The notes below the pieces were generated by a model that saw only the letters and a list, made by a program, of their open reading frames with translations, did no database searches and was not told the origin of the DNA. A stretch of 39,152 nucleotides of DNA from a phage. The position numbers and the translations under genes are program-made. Below, piece by piece: positions 6,543-36,054 of the stretch. The stretch is taken from the sequence record PX759567.1; one strand, given 5' to 3'. The first letter of the stretch is position 1. Each line of letters starts with the position of its first letter.

Positions 6543-7463
6543 ATGGCTGAATCTAATGCAGACGTATATGCATCTTTTGGCGTGAACTCCGCTGTGATGT
6601 CTGGTGGTTCCGTTGAGGAACATGAGCAGAACATGCTGGCTCTTGATGTTGCTGCCCGTGATGGCGATGATGCAATCGAGTTAGCGTCCGACGAAGTGGA
6701 AACAGAACGCGACCTGTATGACAACTCTGACCCATTCGGTCAAGAGGATGATGAGGGCCGCATTCAGGTTCGTATTGGCGATGGCTCCGAGCCGACAGAT
6801 GTGGACACTGGAGAAGGCGTTGAGGGCACCGAAGGTTACGAAGAGTTTACCCCGCTGGGTGAGACTCCAGAAGAACTGGTAGCTGCCTCTGAGCAACTTG
6901 GTGAGCACGAAGAGGGCTTCCAAGAGATGATTAATATTGCTGCCGAGCGTGGCATGAGTGTCGAGACCATTGAGGCTATCCAGCGTGAGTACGAGGAGAA
7001 CGAAGAGTTGTCCGCTGAGTCCTACGCTAAGCTGGCTGAAATTGGCTACACGAAGGCTTTCATTGACTCGTATATCCGTGGTCAAGAAGCTCTGGTGGAG
7101 CAGTACGTAAACAGTGTCATTGAGTACGCTGGTGGTCGTGAACGTTTTGACGCACTGTATAATCACCTTGAGACGCACAACCCTGAGGCTGCACAGTCGC
7201 TGGACAATGCGTTGACCAATCGTGACTTAGCGACCGTTAAGGCTATCATCAACTTGGCTGGTGAGTCTCGCGCTAAGGCGTTTGGTCGTAAGCCAACTCG
7301 TAGTGTGACTAATCGTGCTATTCCGGCTAAACCTCAGGCTACCAAGCGTGAAGGCTTTGCGGACCGTAGCGAGATGATTAAAGCTATGAGTGACCCTCGG
7401 TATCGCACAGATGCCAACTATCGTCGTCAAGTCGAACAGAAAGTAATCGATTCGAACTTCTGA
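6543..7463 (+). CDS. 9: capsid assembly (scaffolding) protein gp9
   Basis: 306-aa acidic ORF matching T7 gp9. Confidence 0.95.
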   Translation: MAESNADVYASFGVNSAVMSGGSVEEHEQNMLALDVAARDGDDAIELASDEVETERDLYDNSDPFGQEDDEGRIQVRIGDGSEPTDVDTGEGVEGTEGYEEFTPLGETPEELVAASEQLGEHEEGFQEMINIAAERGMSVETIEAIQREYEENEELSAESYAKLAEIGYTKAFIDSYIRGQEALVEQYVNSVIEYAGGRERFDALYNHLETHNPEAAQSLDNALTNRDLATVKAIINLAGESRAKAFGRKPTRSVTNRAIPAKPQATKREGFADRSEMIKAMSDPRYRTDANYRRQVEQKVIDSNF

Positions 7464-7476
7464 TAGACTCCGAAAT

Positions 7477-7499
7477 TAATACGACTCACTATAGGGAGA
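7477..7499 (+). promoter_or_regulatory. T7 RNAP promoter phi10
   Basis: exact consensus followed by gene 10 leader (GGGAGACCACAACGGTTTCCC, AAGGAG, CATATG). Confidence 0.9.
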
Positions 7500-7561
7500 C
7501 CACAACGGTTTCCCTCTAGAAATCATTCTTTGTTTAACTTTCTTAAGAAGGAGACATACAT

Positions 7562-8599
7562 ATGGCTAACATGACTGGTGGACAGCAAATGGGTACTAAC
7601 CAAGGTAAAGGCGTAAGTACTGGTGGTGCCGATAAACTGGCGCTGTTCTTGAAGGTATTTGGCGGTGAAGTCCTGACTGCATTCGCTCGTACCTCCGTGA
7701 CTACCTCTCGTCACATGGTACGCTCCATCTCCAGCGGTAAATCAGCTCAGTTCCCTGTTCTGGGTCGCACTCAGGCAGCGTATCTGGCTCCGGGTGAGAA
7801 CCTCGACGATAAACGCAAAGACATCAAGCACACCGAAAAGGTAATCACCATTGATGGTCTCCTGACGGCTGACGTTCTGATTTACGATATTGAGGACGCG
7901 ATGAACCACTACGACGTTCGCTCTGAGTATACCTCTCAGTTAGGTGAATCTCTGGCGATGGCTGCTGACGGTGCTGTTCTGGCTGAGATTGCCGGTCTGT
8001 GTAACTTGACGAGCGCCCAGAACGAGAACATTGAGGGCTTAGGTGCTGCTACTGTAATTGAGACCACTCAGGCCAAGACTGCCCTTACCGACCAAGTTGC
8101 TCTTGGTAAGGAGATTATTGCGGCTCTGACTAAAGCTCGTGCGGCTCTGACCAAGAACTATGTTCCGGCTGCTGACCGCGTGTTCTACTGTGACCCAGAT
8201 AGCTACTCTGCGATTCTGGCAGCACTGATGCCGAACGCGGCAAACTACGCTGCGCTGATTGACCCTGAGAAGGGTTCTATCCGCAACGTTATGGGCTTTG
8301 AGGTTGTAGAAGTTCCGCACCTCACTGCTGGTGGCGCTGGCACCGCTCGCGATGGTACTGCTGGTCAGAAGCACGCCTTCCCCGAAGGCGTTGGCGATAA
8401 CAACAAGGTGGATAAAGTCAACGTTATCGGCCTGTTCATGCATCGTTCTGCGGTTGGTACTGTGAAGCTGCGTGACTTGGCTCTGGAACGTGCTCGTCGA
8501 GCTAACTTCCAAGCGGACCAGATTATCGCTAAGTACGCAATGGGCCACGGTGGTCTGCGCCCAGAAGCTGCTGGTGCAGTGGTTTTCAAAGCGGGGTAA
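7562..8599 (+). CDS. 10A: major capsid protein 10A
   Basis: 345-aa ORF MANMTGGQQMGTNQGKG..., same length as T7 gp10A. Confidence 0.97.
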   Translation: MANMTGGQQMGTNQGKGVSTGGADKLALFLKVFGGEVLTAFARTSVTTSRHMVRSISSGKSAQFPVLGRTQAAYLAPGENLDDKRKDIKHTEKVITIDGLLTADVLIYDIEDAMNHYDVRSEYTSQLGESLAMAADGAVLAEIAGLCNLTSAQNENIEGLGAATVIETTQAKTALTDQVALGKEIIAALTKARAALTKNYVPAADRVFYCDPDSYSAILAALMPNAANYAALIDPEKGSIRNVMGFEVVEVPHLTAGGAGTARDGTAGQKHAFPEGVGDNNKVDKVNVIGLFMHRSAVGTVKLRDLALERARRANFQADQIIAKYAMGHGGLRPEAAGAVVFKAG

Positions 8600-8751
8600 T
8601 GCAGGAAGTGACCTCAACGGTCGCTGCTAGTCCCGAAGAGGTAAGCATTACCGCCGAAGAGAGTCTAACGCCAGCACAAAAAGCTGCCCGTACACGCGCT
8701 GCCAACAAAGCCCGAAAGGAAGCTGAATTGGCTGCTGGCACTGACGAGTAA
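7562..8751 (+). CDS. 10B: minor capsid protein 10B via -1 ribosomal frameshift near 8570-8585
   Basis: -1 frame after GGTTTTC stays open: ...QSGVMQEVTSTVAASPEEVSITAEESLTPAQKAARTRAANKARKEAELAAGTDE*, ending 8751. Confidence 0.75.
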
Positions 8752-8757
8752 CTAGCA

Positions 8758-8797
8758 TAACCCCTTGGGGCCTCTAAACGGGTCTTGAGGGGTTTTT
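8758..8797 (+). terminator. T7 RNAP terminator Tphi
   Basis: AACCCCTTGGGGCCTCTAAACGGGTCTTGAGGGG hairpin followed by TTTTT. Confidence 0.85.
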
Positions 8798-8818
8798 GCT
8801 TAAAGGAGGAGGAACTAT

Positions 8819-9409
8819 ATGCGCTCATACGATATGAACGTTGAGACTGCCGCTGAGTTATCCGCTGTGAACGACATTCTGGCATCTATCGGAGAACCTC
8901 CGGTATCAACGCTGGAAGGTGACGCTAATGCGGATGTAGCGAACGCTCGGCGTATTCTCAACAAGATTAACCGACAGATTCAGTCTCGCGGCTGGACGTT
9001 CAACATTGAGGAAGGCATAACGCTACTACCTGATGTTTACTCCAACCTGATTGTATACAGTGACGATTATTTATCCCTAATGGCTACTTCTGGTCAATCC
9101 ATCTACGTGAACCGAGGTGGCTACGTCTATGACCGAACGAGTCAATCAGACCGCTTTGAGTCCGGTATTACCGTGAACATTATTCGTCTCCGAGACTACG
9201 ATGAGATGCCTGAGTGCTTCCGCTACTGGATTGTCACCAAGGCTTCCCGTCAGTTCAACAACCGATTCTTTGGGGCACCGGAAGTAGAGGGTGTACTCCA
9301 AGAAGAGGAAGATGAGGCTCGACGTCTCTGTATGGAGTACGAAGTGGACTACGGTGGGTACAATATGCTGGATGGCGATGCGTTCACTTCTGGTCTACTG
9401 ACTCGCTAA
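8819..9409 (+). CDS. 11: tail tubular protein A gp11
   Basis: 196-aa ORF, same length as T7 gp11. Confidence 0.95.
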
Positions 9410-9429: not shown

Positions 9430-11814
9430 ATGGCGCTCATTAGCCAATCAATCAAGAACTTGAAGGGTGGTATCAGTCAACAGCCTGACATCCTTCGTTA
9501 TCCAGACCAAGGGTCACGCCAAGTTAACGGTTGGTCTTCGGAGACCGAGGGCCTCCAAAAGCGTCCACCTCTGGTTTTCCTTAAGACCCTAGGAGGAAGT
9601 GGTGACTTAGGGCCAGCGCCTTACGTCCACCTGATTAACCGTGATGAGAACGAACAGTATTACGCTGTGTTCACTGGTAGTGGAATCAGAGTGTTCGACC
9701 TTGCTGGTAACGAGAAGCAAGTTAGGTATCCTAACGGTTCCAACTACATCCAGACCGCTCAGCCACGTAACGACCTGCGAATGGTTACTGTAGCAGACTA
9801 TACGTTCATCGTTAACCGAAACGTTGTTGTACAGAAGGACCCACTTCATATCAACTTACCGAATTATAACCCTAAGCAGGACGGATTGATAAACGTCCGT
9901 GGTGGTCAGTATGGTAGGGAACTAATTGTACACATTAACGGTAAAGACGTTGCGAAGTATAAGATCCCAGATGGTAGTAAACCTGAACACGTAAACAATA
10001 CGGATGCCCAATGGTTAGCCGAAGAGTTAGCCAAGCAGATGCGCACTAACTTGTCTGATTGGACTGTAGATGTAGGGCAAGGGTTCATCCATGTTACCGC
10101 ACCTAGTGGTCAACAGATTGACTCCTTCACGACTAAAGATGGCTACGCAGACCAGTTGATTAACCCTGTGACCCACTACGCTCAGTCGTTCTCTAAGCTG
10201 CCACCTAATGCTCCTAACGGCTACATGGTGAAAATCGTAGGGGACGCCTCTAAGTCTGCCGACCAGTATTACGTTCGGTATGACGATGGGCGTAAAGTCT
10301 GGACTGAGACTTTAGGTTGGGACACTGAGTCCCAAGTTCAATGGAACACCATGCCACACGCTCTTGTGCGAGCCTCTGATGGTAATTTCGACTTCAAGTG
10401 GCTTGAGTGGTCTCCTAAGTCTTGTGGTGACGTTGATACTAACCCTTGGCCTTCTTTTGTTGGTTCAAGTATCAACGATGTGTTCTTCTTCCGTAACCGT
10501 TTAGGTTTCCTTAGTGGGGAGAACATCATATTGAGTCGTACAGCAAAATACTTCAACTTCTACCCTGCGTCCATTGCGAACCTTAGTGATGACGACCCTA
10601 TAGACGTAGCTGTGAGTACCAACCGAATAGCAATCCTTAAGTACGCCGTTCCGTTCTCAGAAGGGTTACTCATCTGGTCCGATGAAGCACAATTCGTCCT
10701 GACTGCCTCGGGTACTCTCACATCTAAGTCGGTTGAGTTGAACCTAACGACCCAGTTTGACGTACAGGACCTAGCGAGACCTTATGGGATTGGTCGTAAT
10801 GTCTACTTTGCTAGTCCGAGGTCCAGCTACACGTCCATCCACAGGTACTACGCCGTGCAGGATGTAAGTTCCGTTAAGAACTCTGAGGACATTACATCAC
10901 ACGTTCCTAACTACATCCCTAATGGTGTGTTCAGTATTTGCGGAAGTGGTACGGAAAACTTCTGTTCGGTACTATCTCACGGGGACCCTAGTAAAATCTT
11001 CATGTACAAATTCATGTACCTGAATGAAGAGTTAAGGCAACAGTCGTGGTCTCATTGGGACTTTGGGGAAAACGTACAAGTTCTAGCTTGTCAGAGTATC
11101 AGCTCAGATATGTACGTTATTCTTCGCAATGAGTTCAATACGTTCCTAGCTAGAATCTCTTTCACTAAGAACGCCATTGACTTACAGGGAGAACCCTATC
11201 GTGCCTTTATGGACATGAAGGTTCGCTACACGATTCCTAGTGGAACATACAACGATGACACCTATACTACCTCTATTCACCTGCCAACAATCTATGGTGC
11301 AAACTTCGGTAGGGACGCAATCGCCGTATTGGAGCCTGATGGTAAGATAACCGTATGTGAGCAACCAACTGGTGGATGGAATAGTGACCCTTGGCTGAGA
11401 CTCAACGGTAACTTAGAGGGACGTGAAGTGTTCATTGGGTTCAACATACACTTCGTCTATGAGTTCTCTAAGTTTCTCATCAAGCAAACTGCCGACGATG
11501 GGTCTACCTCCACGGAAGACATTGGTCGTTTACAGTTACGCAGAGCGTGGGTTAACTACGAGGATTCTGGTACGTTCGACATTTATGTTGAGAACCAATC
11601 GTCCAACTGGAAGTACACAATGGCTGGTGCTAGATTAGGCTCTAACACTCTGAGGGCTGGGAGACTGAACTTAGGGACTGGACAATACCGATTCCCTGTA
11701 GTGGGCAACGCTAAGTTCAATACCGTATACATCGTGTCAGATGCGACTACCCCTCTGAACATCATTGGGTGTGGCTGGGAAGGTAACTACTTACGGAGAA
11801 GTTCCGGTATTTAA
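9430..11814 (+). CDS. 12: tail tubular protein B gp12
   Basis: 794-aa ORF, same length as T7 gp12. Confidence 0.95.
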   Translation: MALISQSIKNLKGGISQQPDILRYPDQGSRQVNGWSSETEGLQKRPPLVFLKTLGGSGDLGPAPYVHLINRDENEQYYAVFTGSGIRVFDLAGNEKQVRYPNGSNYIQTAQPRNDLRMVTVADYTFIVNRNVVVQKDPLHINLPNYNPKQDGLINVRGGQYGRELIVHINGKDVAKYKIPDGSKPEHVNNTDAQWLAEELAKQMRTNLSDWTVDVGQGFIHVTAPSGQQIDSFTTKDGYADQLINPVTHYAQSFSKLPPNAPNGYMVKIVGDASKSADQYYVRYDDGRKVWTETLGWDTESQVQWNTMPHALVRASDGNFDFKWLEWSPKSCGDVDTNPWPSFVGSSINDVFFFRNRLGFLSGENIILSRTAKYFNFYPASIANLSDDDPIDVAVSTNRIAILKYAVPFSEGLLIWSDEAQFVLTASGTLTSKSVELNLTTQFDVQDLARPYGIGRNVYFASPRSSYTSIHRYYAVQDVSSVKNSEDITSHVPNYIPNGVFSICGSGTENFCSVLSHGDPSKIFMYKFMYLNEELRQQSWSHWDFGENVQVLACQSISSDMYVILRNEFNTFLARISFTKNAIDLQGEPYRAFMDMKVRYTIPSGTYNDDTYTTSIHLPTIYGANFGRDAIAVLEPDGKITVCEQPTGGWNSDPWLRLNGNLEGREVFIGFNIHFVYEFSKFLIKQTADDGSTSTEDIGRLQLRRAWVNYEDSGTFDIYVENQSSNWKYTMAGARLGSNTLRAGRLNLGTGQYRFPVVGNAKFNTVYIVSDATTPLNIIGCGWEGNYLRRSSGI

Positions 11815-25635: not shown

Positions 25636-25800
25636 TCTCACAGTGTACGGACCCAAAGTTCCCCCATAGGGGGTACCTAAAGCCCAGCCAATCACCTAAA
25701 GTCAACCTTCGGTTGACCTTGAGGGTTCCCTAGGGGTTGGGATGACCCTTGGGTTTACCTTTGAGTGTTGCCTTGGGTGTAACCTTGAGTGTCTCTCTGT
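25636..25800. repeat. terminal repeat region / concatemer junction (single copy in this permuted representation)
   Basis: TCTCACAGTGTACGGACC... matches the T7 left-end sequence as recalled; TR extent (about 160 bp) inferred from T7. Confidence 0.5.
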
Positions 25801-35599: not shown

Positions 35600-36054
35600 T
35601 GGCTCGTGTACAGTTTAAACAACGTGAATCTACTGACGCAATCTTTGTCCACTGCTCGGCTACCAAGCCAAGTCAGAATGTAGGTGTCCGTGAGATTCGC
35701 CAGTGGCATAAAGAGCAAGGTTGGCTTGATGTTGGGTATCACTTTATCATCAAGCGCGATGGCACTGTAGAGGAAGGCCGAGATGAGATGGCTGTAGGCT
35801 CTCACGCTAAGGGCTACAATCACAACTCTATTGGTGTCTGCCTTGTAGGTGGTATTGATGATAAGGGTAAGTTCGACGCTAACTTTACGCCAGCCCAAAT
35901 GCAATCCCTCCGCTCACTGCTTGTCACACTTCTGGCTAAGTACGAAGGCGCTGTGCTTCGCGCACATCACGATGTGGCCCCTAAGGCTTGCCCTTCGTTC
36001 GACCTTAAGCGTTGGTGGGAAACTAACGAACTGGTCACTTCTGACCGTGGATAA
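35599..36054 (+). CDS. 3.5: lysozyme (N-acetylmuramoyl-L-alanine amidase, RNAP inhibitor) gp3.5
   Basis: 151-aa ORF matching T7 lysozyme. Confidence 0.95.
   Translation: MARVQFKQRESTDAIFVHCSATKPSQNVGVREIRQWHKEQGWLDVGYHFIIKRDGTVEEGRDEMAVGSHAKGYNHNSIGVCLVGGIDDKGKFDANFTPAQMQSLRSLLVTLLAKYEGAVLRAHHDVAPKACPSFDLKRWWETNELVTSDRG

What the first reader, a model, noticed from the sequence alone, without database searches (positions are those of the whole stretch)
8565..8751. Programmed -1 frameshift producing capsid 10B is conserved
Just before the 10A stop codon the sequence GTG GTT TTC AAA GCG GGG TAA allows a -1 slip, and the -1 frame is open for 56 further codons ending at 8751, immediately before Tphi. 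Conservation of this open -1 frame supports functional 10B synthesis.
Basis: partly seen in the sequence, partly recalled or inferred. Interest (0 to 1): 0.2.

Follow-up and report, generated by a model that had tools for sequence, protein, structure and literature searches.

The report
T7-type capsid 10A/10B −1 frameshift
This is the textbook ribosomal frameshift that lets T7-like phages make a longer minor capsid protein (10B) from the end of the major capsid gene; it is intact and under selection in this phage, so it is real but ordinary.

Summary
The window is a circularly permuted genome of a T7-like phage (Teseptimavirus, about 91-94% identical to T7 and 13a). Gene 10A (7562-8599) carries the T7 shift heptamer G GTT TTC at 8581-8587, three codons before its stop. 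After a -1 slip, 54 more codons are open (8587-8748). The stop is TAA at 8749-8751, 7 nt before the Tphi hairpin (8759-8794). Predicted 10B is 396 aa.

In this sequence alone, neither the heptamer (4 copies found, 4.8 expected) nor the open frame (P about 0.12) exceeds chance. The support is comparative:
- All 85 related loci have an in-register slippery motif 0-6 codons before the 10A stop.
- The -1 frame stays open 37-92 codons past the stop in 84 of 85, against 2-17 codons for the +1 frame.
- In the T7-type group, pN/pS is 0.26 in the -1 frame and 1.4-1.6 in the other two frames.

The feature is already known.

One extra result: a predicted stem-loop (8592-8656) starts 4-8 nt 3' of the heptamer. 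It is in the top 1% of the genome for stability. Its core (8608-8640) has the lowest synonymous variation in gene 10, so it may be a proximal stimulator.

The parts
7477..7499 (+). phi10-type T7 RNA polymerase promoter (TAATACGACTCACTATAGGGAGA) that drives gene 10
   Evidence: Read directly from the sequence. It sits at the same place as the annotated phi10 promoter in T7 V01146 and phage 13a.
7562..8599 (+). Gene 10A, major capsid protein, 345 aa, stop TAA at 8597-8599
   Evidence: ORF list. Pfam PF21703 Gp10A-like, E = 5e-112. PDB T7 10A chains 2xvr and 3j7w, E = 1e-202.
8581..8587 (+). Shift heptamer G GTT TTC. The P-site codon GUU re-pairs on GGU and the A-site codon UUC re-pairs on UUU.
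   Evidence: The identical heptamer is in register in 71 of 85 related loci, and the other 14 have a different in-register slippery motif. It is named as the T7 gene 10 shift site in PMC5009743 and PMC1635266.
8587..8751 (+). 10B-specific -1 frame: 54 codons (QSGVMQEV...LTPAQKAARTRAANKARKEAELAAGTDE) plus the TAA stop. The first four codons overlap the end of 10A.
   Evidence: pN/pS is 0.26 in this frame. It matches PHROG 12582 'head protein', E = 3e-25. The tail is 100% identical to that of Teseptimavirus PDP351P2. No Pfam domain was found.
8592..8656 (+). Predicted bipartite RNA stem-loop 3' of the heptamer. The outer helix is 8592-8602 with 8645-8656, and its conserved 7 bp are 8596-8602 with 8645-8651. 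The inner hairpin is 8607-8613 with 8619-8625, loop UCAAC. A candidate proximal frameshift stimulator (inferred).
   Evidence: MFE is -27.6 kcal/mol with z = -3.2. It is in the top 1% of 1564 genome windows. Pairing probability is 0.97-1.0 in the 236-nt context. 98.3% of cells are paired in 36 distinct relatives, but covariation is only suggestive, with 17 of 500 shuffles reaching the observed score.
8608..8640 (+). Eleven codons of the 10B tail (aa 350-360) with almost no synonymous variation, which indicates a nucleotide-level constraint overlapping the coding sequence
   Evidence: Only 1 of 11 third positions varies, against a background of 72%. This is the lowest of about 398 sliding windows across gene 10. 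The invariant codons include the non-preferred TCA, ACG and AGT.
8759..8799 (+). Tphi-type terminator hairpin (stem 8759-8794) plus T-run. It contains the CCCC tract at 8761-8764, about 175 nt 3' of the shift site.
   Evidence: Terminator scan. It aligns with T7 Tphi. The review PMC5009743 reports that a CCCC in the terminator is involved in T7 gene 10 frameshifting.

Best explanation
This is the programmed -1 ribosomal frameshift of gene 10 of a T7-like phage.

Most ribosomes decode 10A to its TAA at 8597-8599 and release the 345-aa major capsid protein. A minority slip back one base when GUU is in the P site and UUC is in the A site (heptamer 8581-8587). The A-site tRNA-Phe re-pairs on UUU and the P-site tRNA-Val re-pairs imperfectly on GGU. 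Those ribosomes then read 54 further codons in the -1 frame to TAA at 8749-8751. The result is a 396-aa minor capsid protein, 10B, that co-assembles into the shell with a C-terminal tail containing a conserved basic segment (LTPAQKAARTRAANKA).

What is shown here: the anatomy, the orthology, and purifying selection on the -1 frame.

What is inferred from T7: that the fusion protein is made, at roughly 10%; that it is not essential; and that 3' context raises efficiency about 10-fold. That 3' context probably includes the predicted stem-loop at 8592-8656 and the Tphi region.
For: - Anatomy.
- 91% DNA identity to T7, where 10B is annotated as a joined CDS. The 13a record notes a slippery sequence at this junction.
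- All 85 loci have an in-register slippery motif 0-6 codons before the 10A stop. The -1 frame is open 37-92 codons past the stop in 84 of 85, against 2-17 codons for +1.
- Variable columns by codon position of the -1 frame are 17, 13 and 34, and pN/pS is 0.26 against 1.42 and 1.59 in the other frames.
- The conserved basic segment of the tail (aa 367-381) has pN/pS of 0.05.
- Relatives whose tails have no start codon at the junction (34 Klebsiella-type and 5 T3-type) still keep the frame open, so fusion is the only general route to the tail.
- Literature: G_GU heptamer and terminator CCCC (PMC5009743); about 10% in wild type but under 1% with the heptamer alone (PMC1635266); 10B not essential (PMC5592923).
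- Stem-loop and synonymous constraint. An analogous hairpin with compensatory pairs occurs in Klebsiella-type relatives.
Against: - No protein evidence exists for this phage.
- Single-sequence statistics are weak.
- The P-site re-pairing (GUU to GGU) is imperfect.
- The tail tolerates loss in relatives: L063 is truncated to 17 aa, and L005 and L068 lack 7 codons. So selection on it is not absolute.
- Covariation for the stem-loop in the T7-type group is not significant.
- Some relatives show no comparable local structure (z about 0 in the L032-type group, about -1 in T3-type).
Confidence: 0.93

Rival explanations
1. The 50-codon ORF 8599-8751 is a separate small gene. It would be translated from the ATG that overlaps the 10A stop (TAATG) by termination-reinitiation, giving a free peptide rather than a fusion.
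For: The ATG at 8599 overlaps the TAA at 8597-8599. This overlap is kept in 21 of 85 loci, mostly in the T7 core group. Many GenBank records annotate such a stand-alone CDS, and PHROG 12582 is built from them.
Against: - 64 of 85 loci, including all Klebsiella-type and T3-type ones, lack any such overlapping start yet keep the -1 frame open. Two T7-type relatives with the GTAACAC variant (L068, L119) have ACA in place of the ATG.
- The purine tract (GGGG or GGAG) lies only 2 nt before the ATG, too close for a normal Shine-Dalgarno spacing. This is read from the sequence.
- The slippery heptamer is conserved at synonymous positions (pS = 0 at codons 341-342). A separate gene would not require that.
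- T7 10B is reported as a frameshift fusion that shares all but its C-terminal ~53 residues with 10A (PMC5592923).
Confidence: 0.04
2. The open -1 frame is an unselected relic. It would be conserved only because the DNA or RNA between 10A and Tphi is constrained for other reasons, such as mRNA 3'-end structure or termination.
For: Part of the region (8608-8640) does show nucleotide-level constraint. 10B is dispensable in T7. Some relatives carry truncated tails.
Against: Outside the constrained core, synonymous change is as frequent as in 10A (pS 0.27 against 0.31) while non-synonymous change is suppressed (pN/pS 0.26, and 0.05 over aa 367-381). Indels in the aligned tails are whole codons. 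Three unrelated tail modules are all kept in the -1 frame across lineages.
Confidence: 0.02
3. The longer product arises from transcriptional slippage of T7 RNA polymerase on the T4 run, not from ribosomal slippage.
For: A short homopolymer (TTTT, 8583-8586) lies at the site.
Against: - Four T is much shorter than the runs known to give appreciable polymerase slippage. This rests on established knowledge and was not tested here.
- Relatives use heptamers of the tandem tRNA-slippage form without long homopolymers: C CCA AAG, G GTA AAG and T TTA AAG.
- The review classes T7 gene 10 as ribosomal X_XXY_YYZ frameshifting.
Confidence: 0.01

Closest known systems
Bacteriophage T7 gene 10A/10B -1 programmed ribosomal frameshift (Dunn and Studier 1983; Condron, Atkins and Gesteland 1991, cited from reference lists)
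   Same: - The heptamer G GTT TTC is identical and sits three codons before the 10A stop.
- The gene order is the same: phi10, gene 10, Tphi, gene 11.
- The tail is homologous (...STVAASPEE...LTPAQKAARTRAANKARKEAELAA...).
- The Tphi hairpin with its CCCC tract is retained.
   Different: - The tail is 54 aa rather than 56. It has a one-codon deletion and a different last few residues (GTDE against ATAEQ).
- 10A ends KAG instead of KVE.
- The outer helix of the predicted stem-loop is Watson-Crick here (GCAUUAC) where T7 has two G-U pairs (GUGUUAC).
- Tphi has 5 T instead of 6.
Teseptimavirus PDP351P2 (OZ035763.1) and Salmonella phage C2 (MN026740.1), the nearest database relatives at this junction
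   Same: PDP351P2 is 98.7% identical over 8450-8830, and its tail protein is 100% identical. C2 is 94% identical over 7400-8900.
   Different: PDP351P2 is unannotated. C2 annotates the tail as a separate 153-nt CDS rather than as a frameshift product.
Phage T3-type capsid frameshift that adds an Ig-like domain
   Same: A -1 frameshift occurs at the very end of the orthologous capsid gene and gives a minor capsid protein with a C-terminal extension.
   Different: T3-type loci use C CCA AAG and add a Big_2 Ig-like domain (E = 1e-15). The tail in the window has no Pfam domain and is short. The review also notes that the T7 extension is not Ig-like.
E. coli dnaX -1 frameshift (upstream Shine-Dalgarno, A AAA AAG, 3' stem-loop)
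   Same: It is a bacterial-ribosome tandem -1 slip with a stem-loop a few nucleotides 3' of the heptamer. For the window that stem-loop is predicted only.
   Different: No Shine-Dalgarno-like tract lies 10-14 nt upstream here. The heptamer is weaker. Efficiency is about 10% in T7 against 50% for dnaX. T7 also has a reported long-range terminator effect.

Membership tests
T7-type gene 10A/10B -1 programmed frameshift | The host gene is a T7-like major capsid protein (gp10A) | tested here: met
   PF21703 Gp10A-like, E = 5e-112. T7 10A PDB chains, E = 1e-202.
T7-type gene 10A/10B -1 programmed frameshift | A slippery heptamer in X XXY YYZ register within a few codons of the 10A stop | tested here: met
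   G GTT TTC at 8581-8587, three codons before the TAA. It is conserved in register in 71 of 85 loci, and the rest have other in-register slippery motifs.
T7-type gene 10A/10B -1 programmed frameshift | The -1 frame is open beyond the 10A stop and evolves as coding sequence | tested here: met
   54 open codons. pN/pS is 0.26 in the -1 frame against 1.4-1.6 in the other frames, with no stops against 2-5.
T7-type gene 10A/10B -1 programmed frameshift | Synteny: phi10 promoter, gene 10, Tphi terminator, gene 11 | tested here: met
T7-type gene 10A/10B -1 programmed frameshift | The 3' stimulatory context, including the CCCC tract of the terminator, is present | tested here: met
   CCCC at 8761-8764 lies within a Tphi hairpin nearly identical to that of T7. 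Only its presence was tested. Its role comes from PMC5009743.
T7-type gene 10A/10B -1 programmed frameshift | A trans-frame 10B protein is made at about 10% and incorporated into capsids | not testable with these tools
   This needs SDS-PAGE, western blotting or mass spectrometry of this phage. The T7 values are taken from PMC1635266 and PMC5592923.
Frameshift-appended Ig-like capsid decoration domain (T3-type) | The extension folds as an Ig-like (Big_2) domain | tested here: not met
   The 54-aa tail has no Pfam hit at E <= 0.1. The T3-type relative's extension hits Big_2 at 9.6e-16.
dnaX-type stimulated -1 frameshift | A Shine-Dalgarno-like stimulator 10-14 nt 5' of the heptamer | tested here: not met
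   The sequence at 8561-8580 (CCAGAAGCTGCTGGTGCAGT) contains no GGAGG- or AGGAG-like tract, only GGTG.
dnaX-type stimulated -1 frameshift | A stable stem-loop about 5-9 nt 3' of the heptamer that is needed for efficiency | tested here: inconclusive
   A stable structure is predicted at 8592-8656 (z = -3.2, top 1% of the genome), with synonymous constraint. Covariation is only suggestive. Function was not tested.

The most novel reading that the evidence does not exclude
The proximal stimulator of gene 10 frameshifting in T7-like phages may be a local bipartite stem-loop, here 8592-8656, whose base lies 4-8 nt 3' of the heptamer and encloses the 10A stop codon.

Evidence in its favour:
- The segment just 3' of the heptamer that contains it (8588-8662) is among the most stable 1% of 75-nt segments in this genome.
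- Its core (8608-8640) has the lowest synonymous variation in gene 10.
- Lineages with non-homologous tails have their own stable hairpin starting 20 nt 3' of the heptamer, the same offset as the inner hairpin here. In Klebsiella-type phages it is 18 bp with two compensatory pairs.

This could explain why the heptamer alone gives under 1% against about 10% in native context. It could also bear on the still unexplained long-range terminator effect in T7.

I could not read Condron et al. 1991, so this structure may already have been tested and dismissed.
Probability: 0.35. Interest if true: 0.35.

Novelty: already known. Interest (0 to 1): 0.1.

Why it matters
For this window it matters mainly for annotation. 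Gene 10 should be annotated with a joined 10B CDS (7562..8587, 8587..8751). It should not be annotated with a stand-alone 50-codon 'head protein' ORF, an error seen in many GenBank relatives.

Biologically it confirms that the minor capsid form, although dispensable in the laboratory, is kept under purifying selection in T7 relatives.

The side result may interest recoding specialists, because the stimulators of T7 gene 10 frameshifting are described as unexplained in the 2016 review. That result is a synonymous-constrained stem-loop just 3' of the shift site, with structural analogues in lineages whose tails are unrelated.

Tried and rejected
- **Single-sequence significance.** The heptamer count (4 against 4.8 expected) and a shuffle of the open frame (P = 0.12) show nothing beyond chance. 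I therefore dropped any argument from the window alone.
- **Resemblance of the inner hairpin apex (GACCTCAACGGTC) to the Tphi apex (GGCCTCTAAACGGGTC).** I considered a duplication or a long-range partner. The local alignment score is not above shuffles (P = 0.37 for the window, 0.10 for T7), so I rejected it as chance.
- **Rfam.** No family matched 8450-8850, even at E <= 1.
- **Covariation for the stem-loop in the T7 core group.** It was not significant with 17 sequences and only suggestive with 36 (17 of 500 shuffles). All changes but one are G-U wobble transitions.
- **An upstream Shine-Dalgarno-like stimulator.** None is visible.
- **The primary papers.** Condron et al. 1991 (PMC209055, PMC328964) are not held in the library. 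What they tested is taken second-hand.
- **tblastn of the 54-aa tail.** It returned only 28 records, because the Ala/Lys-rich half is masked as low complexity. It is therefore useless as a census.
- **A second IMG/VR scan anchored 5' of the heptamer.** It added only two new T7-core sequences.
- **The PDB hit of the tail to VirS (E = 4e-5).** I treated it as a low-complexity match and did not pursue it.

Full report
**What is in the window**

The region carries these features in order:
- a consensus T7 promoter (TAATACGACTCACTATAGGGAGA, 7477-7499);
- a 345-codon ORF at 7562-8599;
- a G+C-rich hairpin with a T-run at 8759-8794;
- the next gene, starting at 8819.

The ORF product is a T7-type major capsid protein (Pfam PF21703, E = 5e-112; T7 10A PDB chains, E = 1e-202). 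Over 7400-8900 the DNA is 94% identical to Teseptimavirus PDP351P2 and Salmonella phage C2, and 91% identical to T7. Over the first 25 kb it is 94% identical to phage 13a and T7. The window begins inside gene 5, and the T7 left-end sequence occurs once, at 25636. So the window is a circular permutation of a complete Teseptimavirus genome.

**Checking the observation**

The quoted string lies at 8579-8599 in the 10A frame. The heptamer G GTT TTC is at 8581-8587. After a -1 slip the next codon starts at C8587. There are 54 sense codons up to 8748, followed by TAA at 8749-8751.

Predicted 10B is 342 + 54 = 396 aa. The 10B stop lies 7 nt before the terminator stem. The stated start, 8565, lies on no codon boundary of either frame. 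Otherwise the description is accurate.

**Is it more than chance?**

Not from this sequence alone:
- GGTTTTC occurs four times in the window, against 4.8 expected.
- 12% of shuffles of the 162-nt stretch lack an in-frame stop.
- A second in-register G GTT TTC, in gene 12 (9573-9579), meets a -1 stop after one codon.

The case rests on comparison. I collected 84 related loci (80 IMG/VR contigs and four GenBank records).
- With the window, all 85 loci have a slippery motif in X XXY YYZ register 0-6 codons before the 10A stop. The motifs are G GTT TTC in 71, A or C GTT TTC in 4, C CCA AAG in 5, T TTA AAG and G GTA AAG in one each, and GGTTTTCAAAAAG in 3.
- The -1 frame stays open 37-92 codons beyond the stop in 84 of 85. 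The +1 frame closes after 2-17 codons.
- The 17 distinct T7-type sequences have no stops in the -1 frame, against 2-5 in each other frame.
- Variable columns fall 17, 13 and 34 on codon positions 1, 2 and 3 of the -1 frame, and indels in the aligned tails are whole codons.
- Pooled pN/pS is 0.26 in the -1 frame, against 1.42 and 1.59 in the other two frames. For the window against T7 the values are 0.19, 1.83 and 1.93.
- Synonymous divergence in the tail (pS 0.27) is like that of 10A (0.31). The basic segment LTPAQKAARTRAANKA has pN/pS of 0.05.

The tail is therefore translated and selected as protein.

**How the tail is reached**

A rival reading is a separate small gene starting at the ATG that overlaps the 10A stop (TAATG). 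Many GenBank records annotate it that way, and PHROG 12582 is built from such entries.

This fails as a general explanation. Only 21 of 85 loci have such an overlap. The 34 Klebsiella-type and 5 T3-type relatives have no start codon there, yet keep long -1 extensions. The heptamer codons are invariant at synonymous sites. T7 10B is reported as a frameshift fusion that shares all but its C-terminal ~53 residues with 10A.

The Atkins et al. 2016 review lists T7 gene 10 as an X_XXY_YYZ site with X_XX = G_GU. Frameshifting is put at about 10% in wild-type T7. 10B is stated to be non-essential. I take these as established for T7 and infer them for this 91%-identical relative.

**Stimulators**

A reporter carrying only GGTTTTC, with foreign 3' sequence, frameshifted in under 1% of translations, against about 10% in native context (PMC1635266). 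The review says a CCCC tract in the terminator is involved and that the effect is unexplained. The window retains that tract (8761-8764) in a near-identical Tphi.

I also found a local candidate. The RNA at 8588-8660 folds into a bipartite stem-loop spanning 8592-8656:
- The outer helix is GGGGUAAUGC with GCAUUACC.
- The inner hairpin is AGUGACC-UCAAC-GGUCGCU.
- MFE is -27.6 kcal/mol, z = -3.2, and no shuffle out of 200 folds as well.
- The 75-nt segment ranks in the top 1% of 1564 genome windows for both energy and z-score.
- Pairing probabilities are 0.97-1.0 when folded within 8575-8810.
- Its base lies 4-8 nt 3' of the heptamer, the usual spacing for -1 stimulators.

Codons 350-360 of 10B (8608-8640), which form the inner hairpin and a small adjacent one, have one variable third position out of 11, against a 72% background. 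That is the lowest of about 398 windows in gene 10. These invariant codons include the non-preferred TCA, ACG and AGT. The non-synonymous changes that do occur are either structure-neutral (A-U to G-U) or fall in unpaired positions.

In 36 distinct T7-type sequences, 98.3% of cells pair. The 7-bp outer helix pairs in all 36, with three pair types at two positions. However, covariation only borders on significance, with 17 of 500 shuffles reaching the observed score.

Lineages with unrelated tails have their own stable structures at the same position. The Klebsiella-type group has an 18-bp hairpin with two compensatory pairs that exceeds all 500 shuffles. Two groups do not show this: the L032-like group (z about 0) and the T3-like group (z about -1).

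I regard the stem-loop as a plausible proximal stimulator, not a demonstrated one. I could not read the 1991 mutational papers to learn whether it has already been tested.

**Function of the tail**

The tail has no Pfam domain, and no solved T7 capsid chain includes it. T3-type relatives append a Big_2 Ig-like domain instead (E = 1e-15). Klebsiella-type relatives append a 96-aa module (PHROG 7473). So the junction acts as a swap point for capsid-surface decorations made at sub-stoichiometric level.

Some relatives have truncated or shortened tails (L063, L005, L068). This fits dispensability in T7.

**Verdict**

The feature is the known T7 10A/10B frameshift in a close relative. PDP351P2 has an identical tail protein and is 98.7% identical in DNA over 8450-8830. 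Novelty: already known. Interest is low. The only part with some research value is the candidate 3' stem-loop.

Noticed in passing
window 1-39152 (junction at 25636-25689): The window is a circular permutation of a whole T7-like genome. Position 1 corresponds to about T7 14626, inside gene 5. The T7 left-end sequence occurs once, at 25636-25689, with one mismatch, so the terminal repeat is collapsed to one copy.
   Followed up: partly
window 9573-9579: A second G GTT TTC lies in the correct X XXY YYZ register inside gene 12 (codons L-V-F). The -1 frame stops after one codon. It serves as an internal control showing that the heptamer alone means little. Any slippage there would give a truncated gp12.
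   Followed up: partly
window 8608-8640: Eleven consecutive codons of the 10B tail have almost no synonymous variation among 17 relatives (1 of 11 third positions, against a 72% background). This is the most constrained stretch of gene 10. It coincides with a predicted hairpin (8607-8625) and a small adjacent one.
   Followed up: yes
L003, L004, L104-L110, L113-L116, L118-L120 (GenBank relatives): Many deposited T7-like genomes annotate the 10B tail as a stand-alone 150-160 nt CDS ('head protein', 'capsid and scaffold protein', 'hypothetical protein') rather than as a frameshift product. PHROG 12582 is built from these entries.
   Followed up: partly
L022-L026 (T3-type) and L029-L084 (Klebsiella-type) relatives: Three unrelated C-terminal modules are attached by a -1 frameshift at the same junction: the T7-type basic tail, a Big_2 Ig-like domain reached through C CCA AAG, and a 96-aa module (PHROG 7473, no Pfam domain) in Klebsiella-type phages.
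   Followed up: partly
L029 and 25 other Klebsiella-type loci, 20-62 nt 3' of the heptamer: An 18-bp hairpin (ACCUUUAGUGCUCGGRYGG...CCRYCUGAGUAUGAGGU) has two adjacent compensatory pairs (A-U to G-C in 8 sequences, C-G to U-A in 6). No shuffle out of 500 reaches the observed covariation.
   Followed up: yes
L035, L063, L069: These loci have tandem slippery motifs, GGTTTTCAAAAAG. G GTT TTC is followed directly by C AAA AAG, and both lead into the same -1 frame. L063 also has a premature stop that leaves a 17-aa tail.
   Followed up: no
L068 and L038: These are variant shift sites. L068 (a Vi06-like Salmonella phage) has G GTT TTA AAG, which creates the canonical T TTA AAG heptamer. L038 has G GTA AAG in place of G GTT TTC.
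   Followed up: no
L111 (PV596791), L112 (MZ833439), L117 (PV596790): Three GenBank T7-like records have a deletion of about 105 nt that removes the C-terminal half of the tail and all of Tphi. They also lack most of gene 10A and the phi10 promoter. In two of them the -1 frame runs on into gene 11. These are either assembly artefacts or deletion mutants.
   Followed up: partly
window 8795-8818: Compared with T7, the Tphi T-run has 5 T instead of 6. The gene 11 ribosome-binding region carries an extra GGA (AAAGGAGGAGGAACT against AAAGGAGGAACT).
   Followed up: no
window around 27051, 11801, 21401, 36026-36051, 6451: The 75-nt windows with the most extreme folding z-scores in the genome (-5 to -6.3) lie at these positions. 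They may correspond to the RNase III processing sites of T7-like phages. They were not examined.
   Followed up: no
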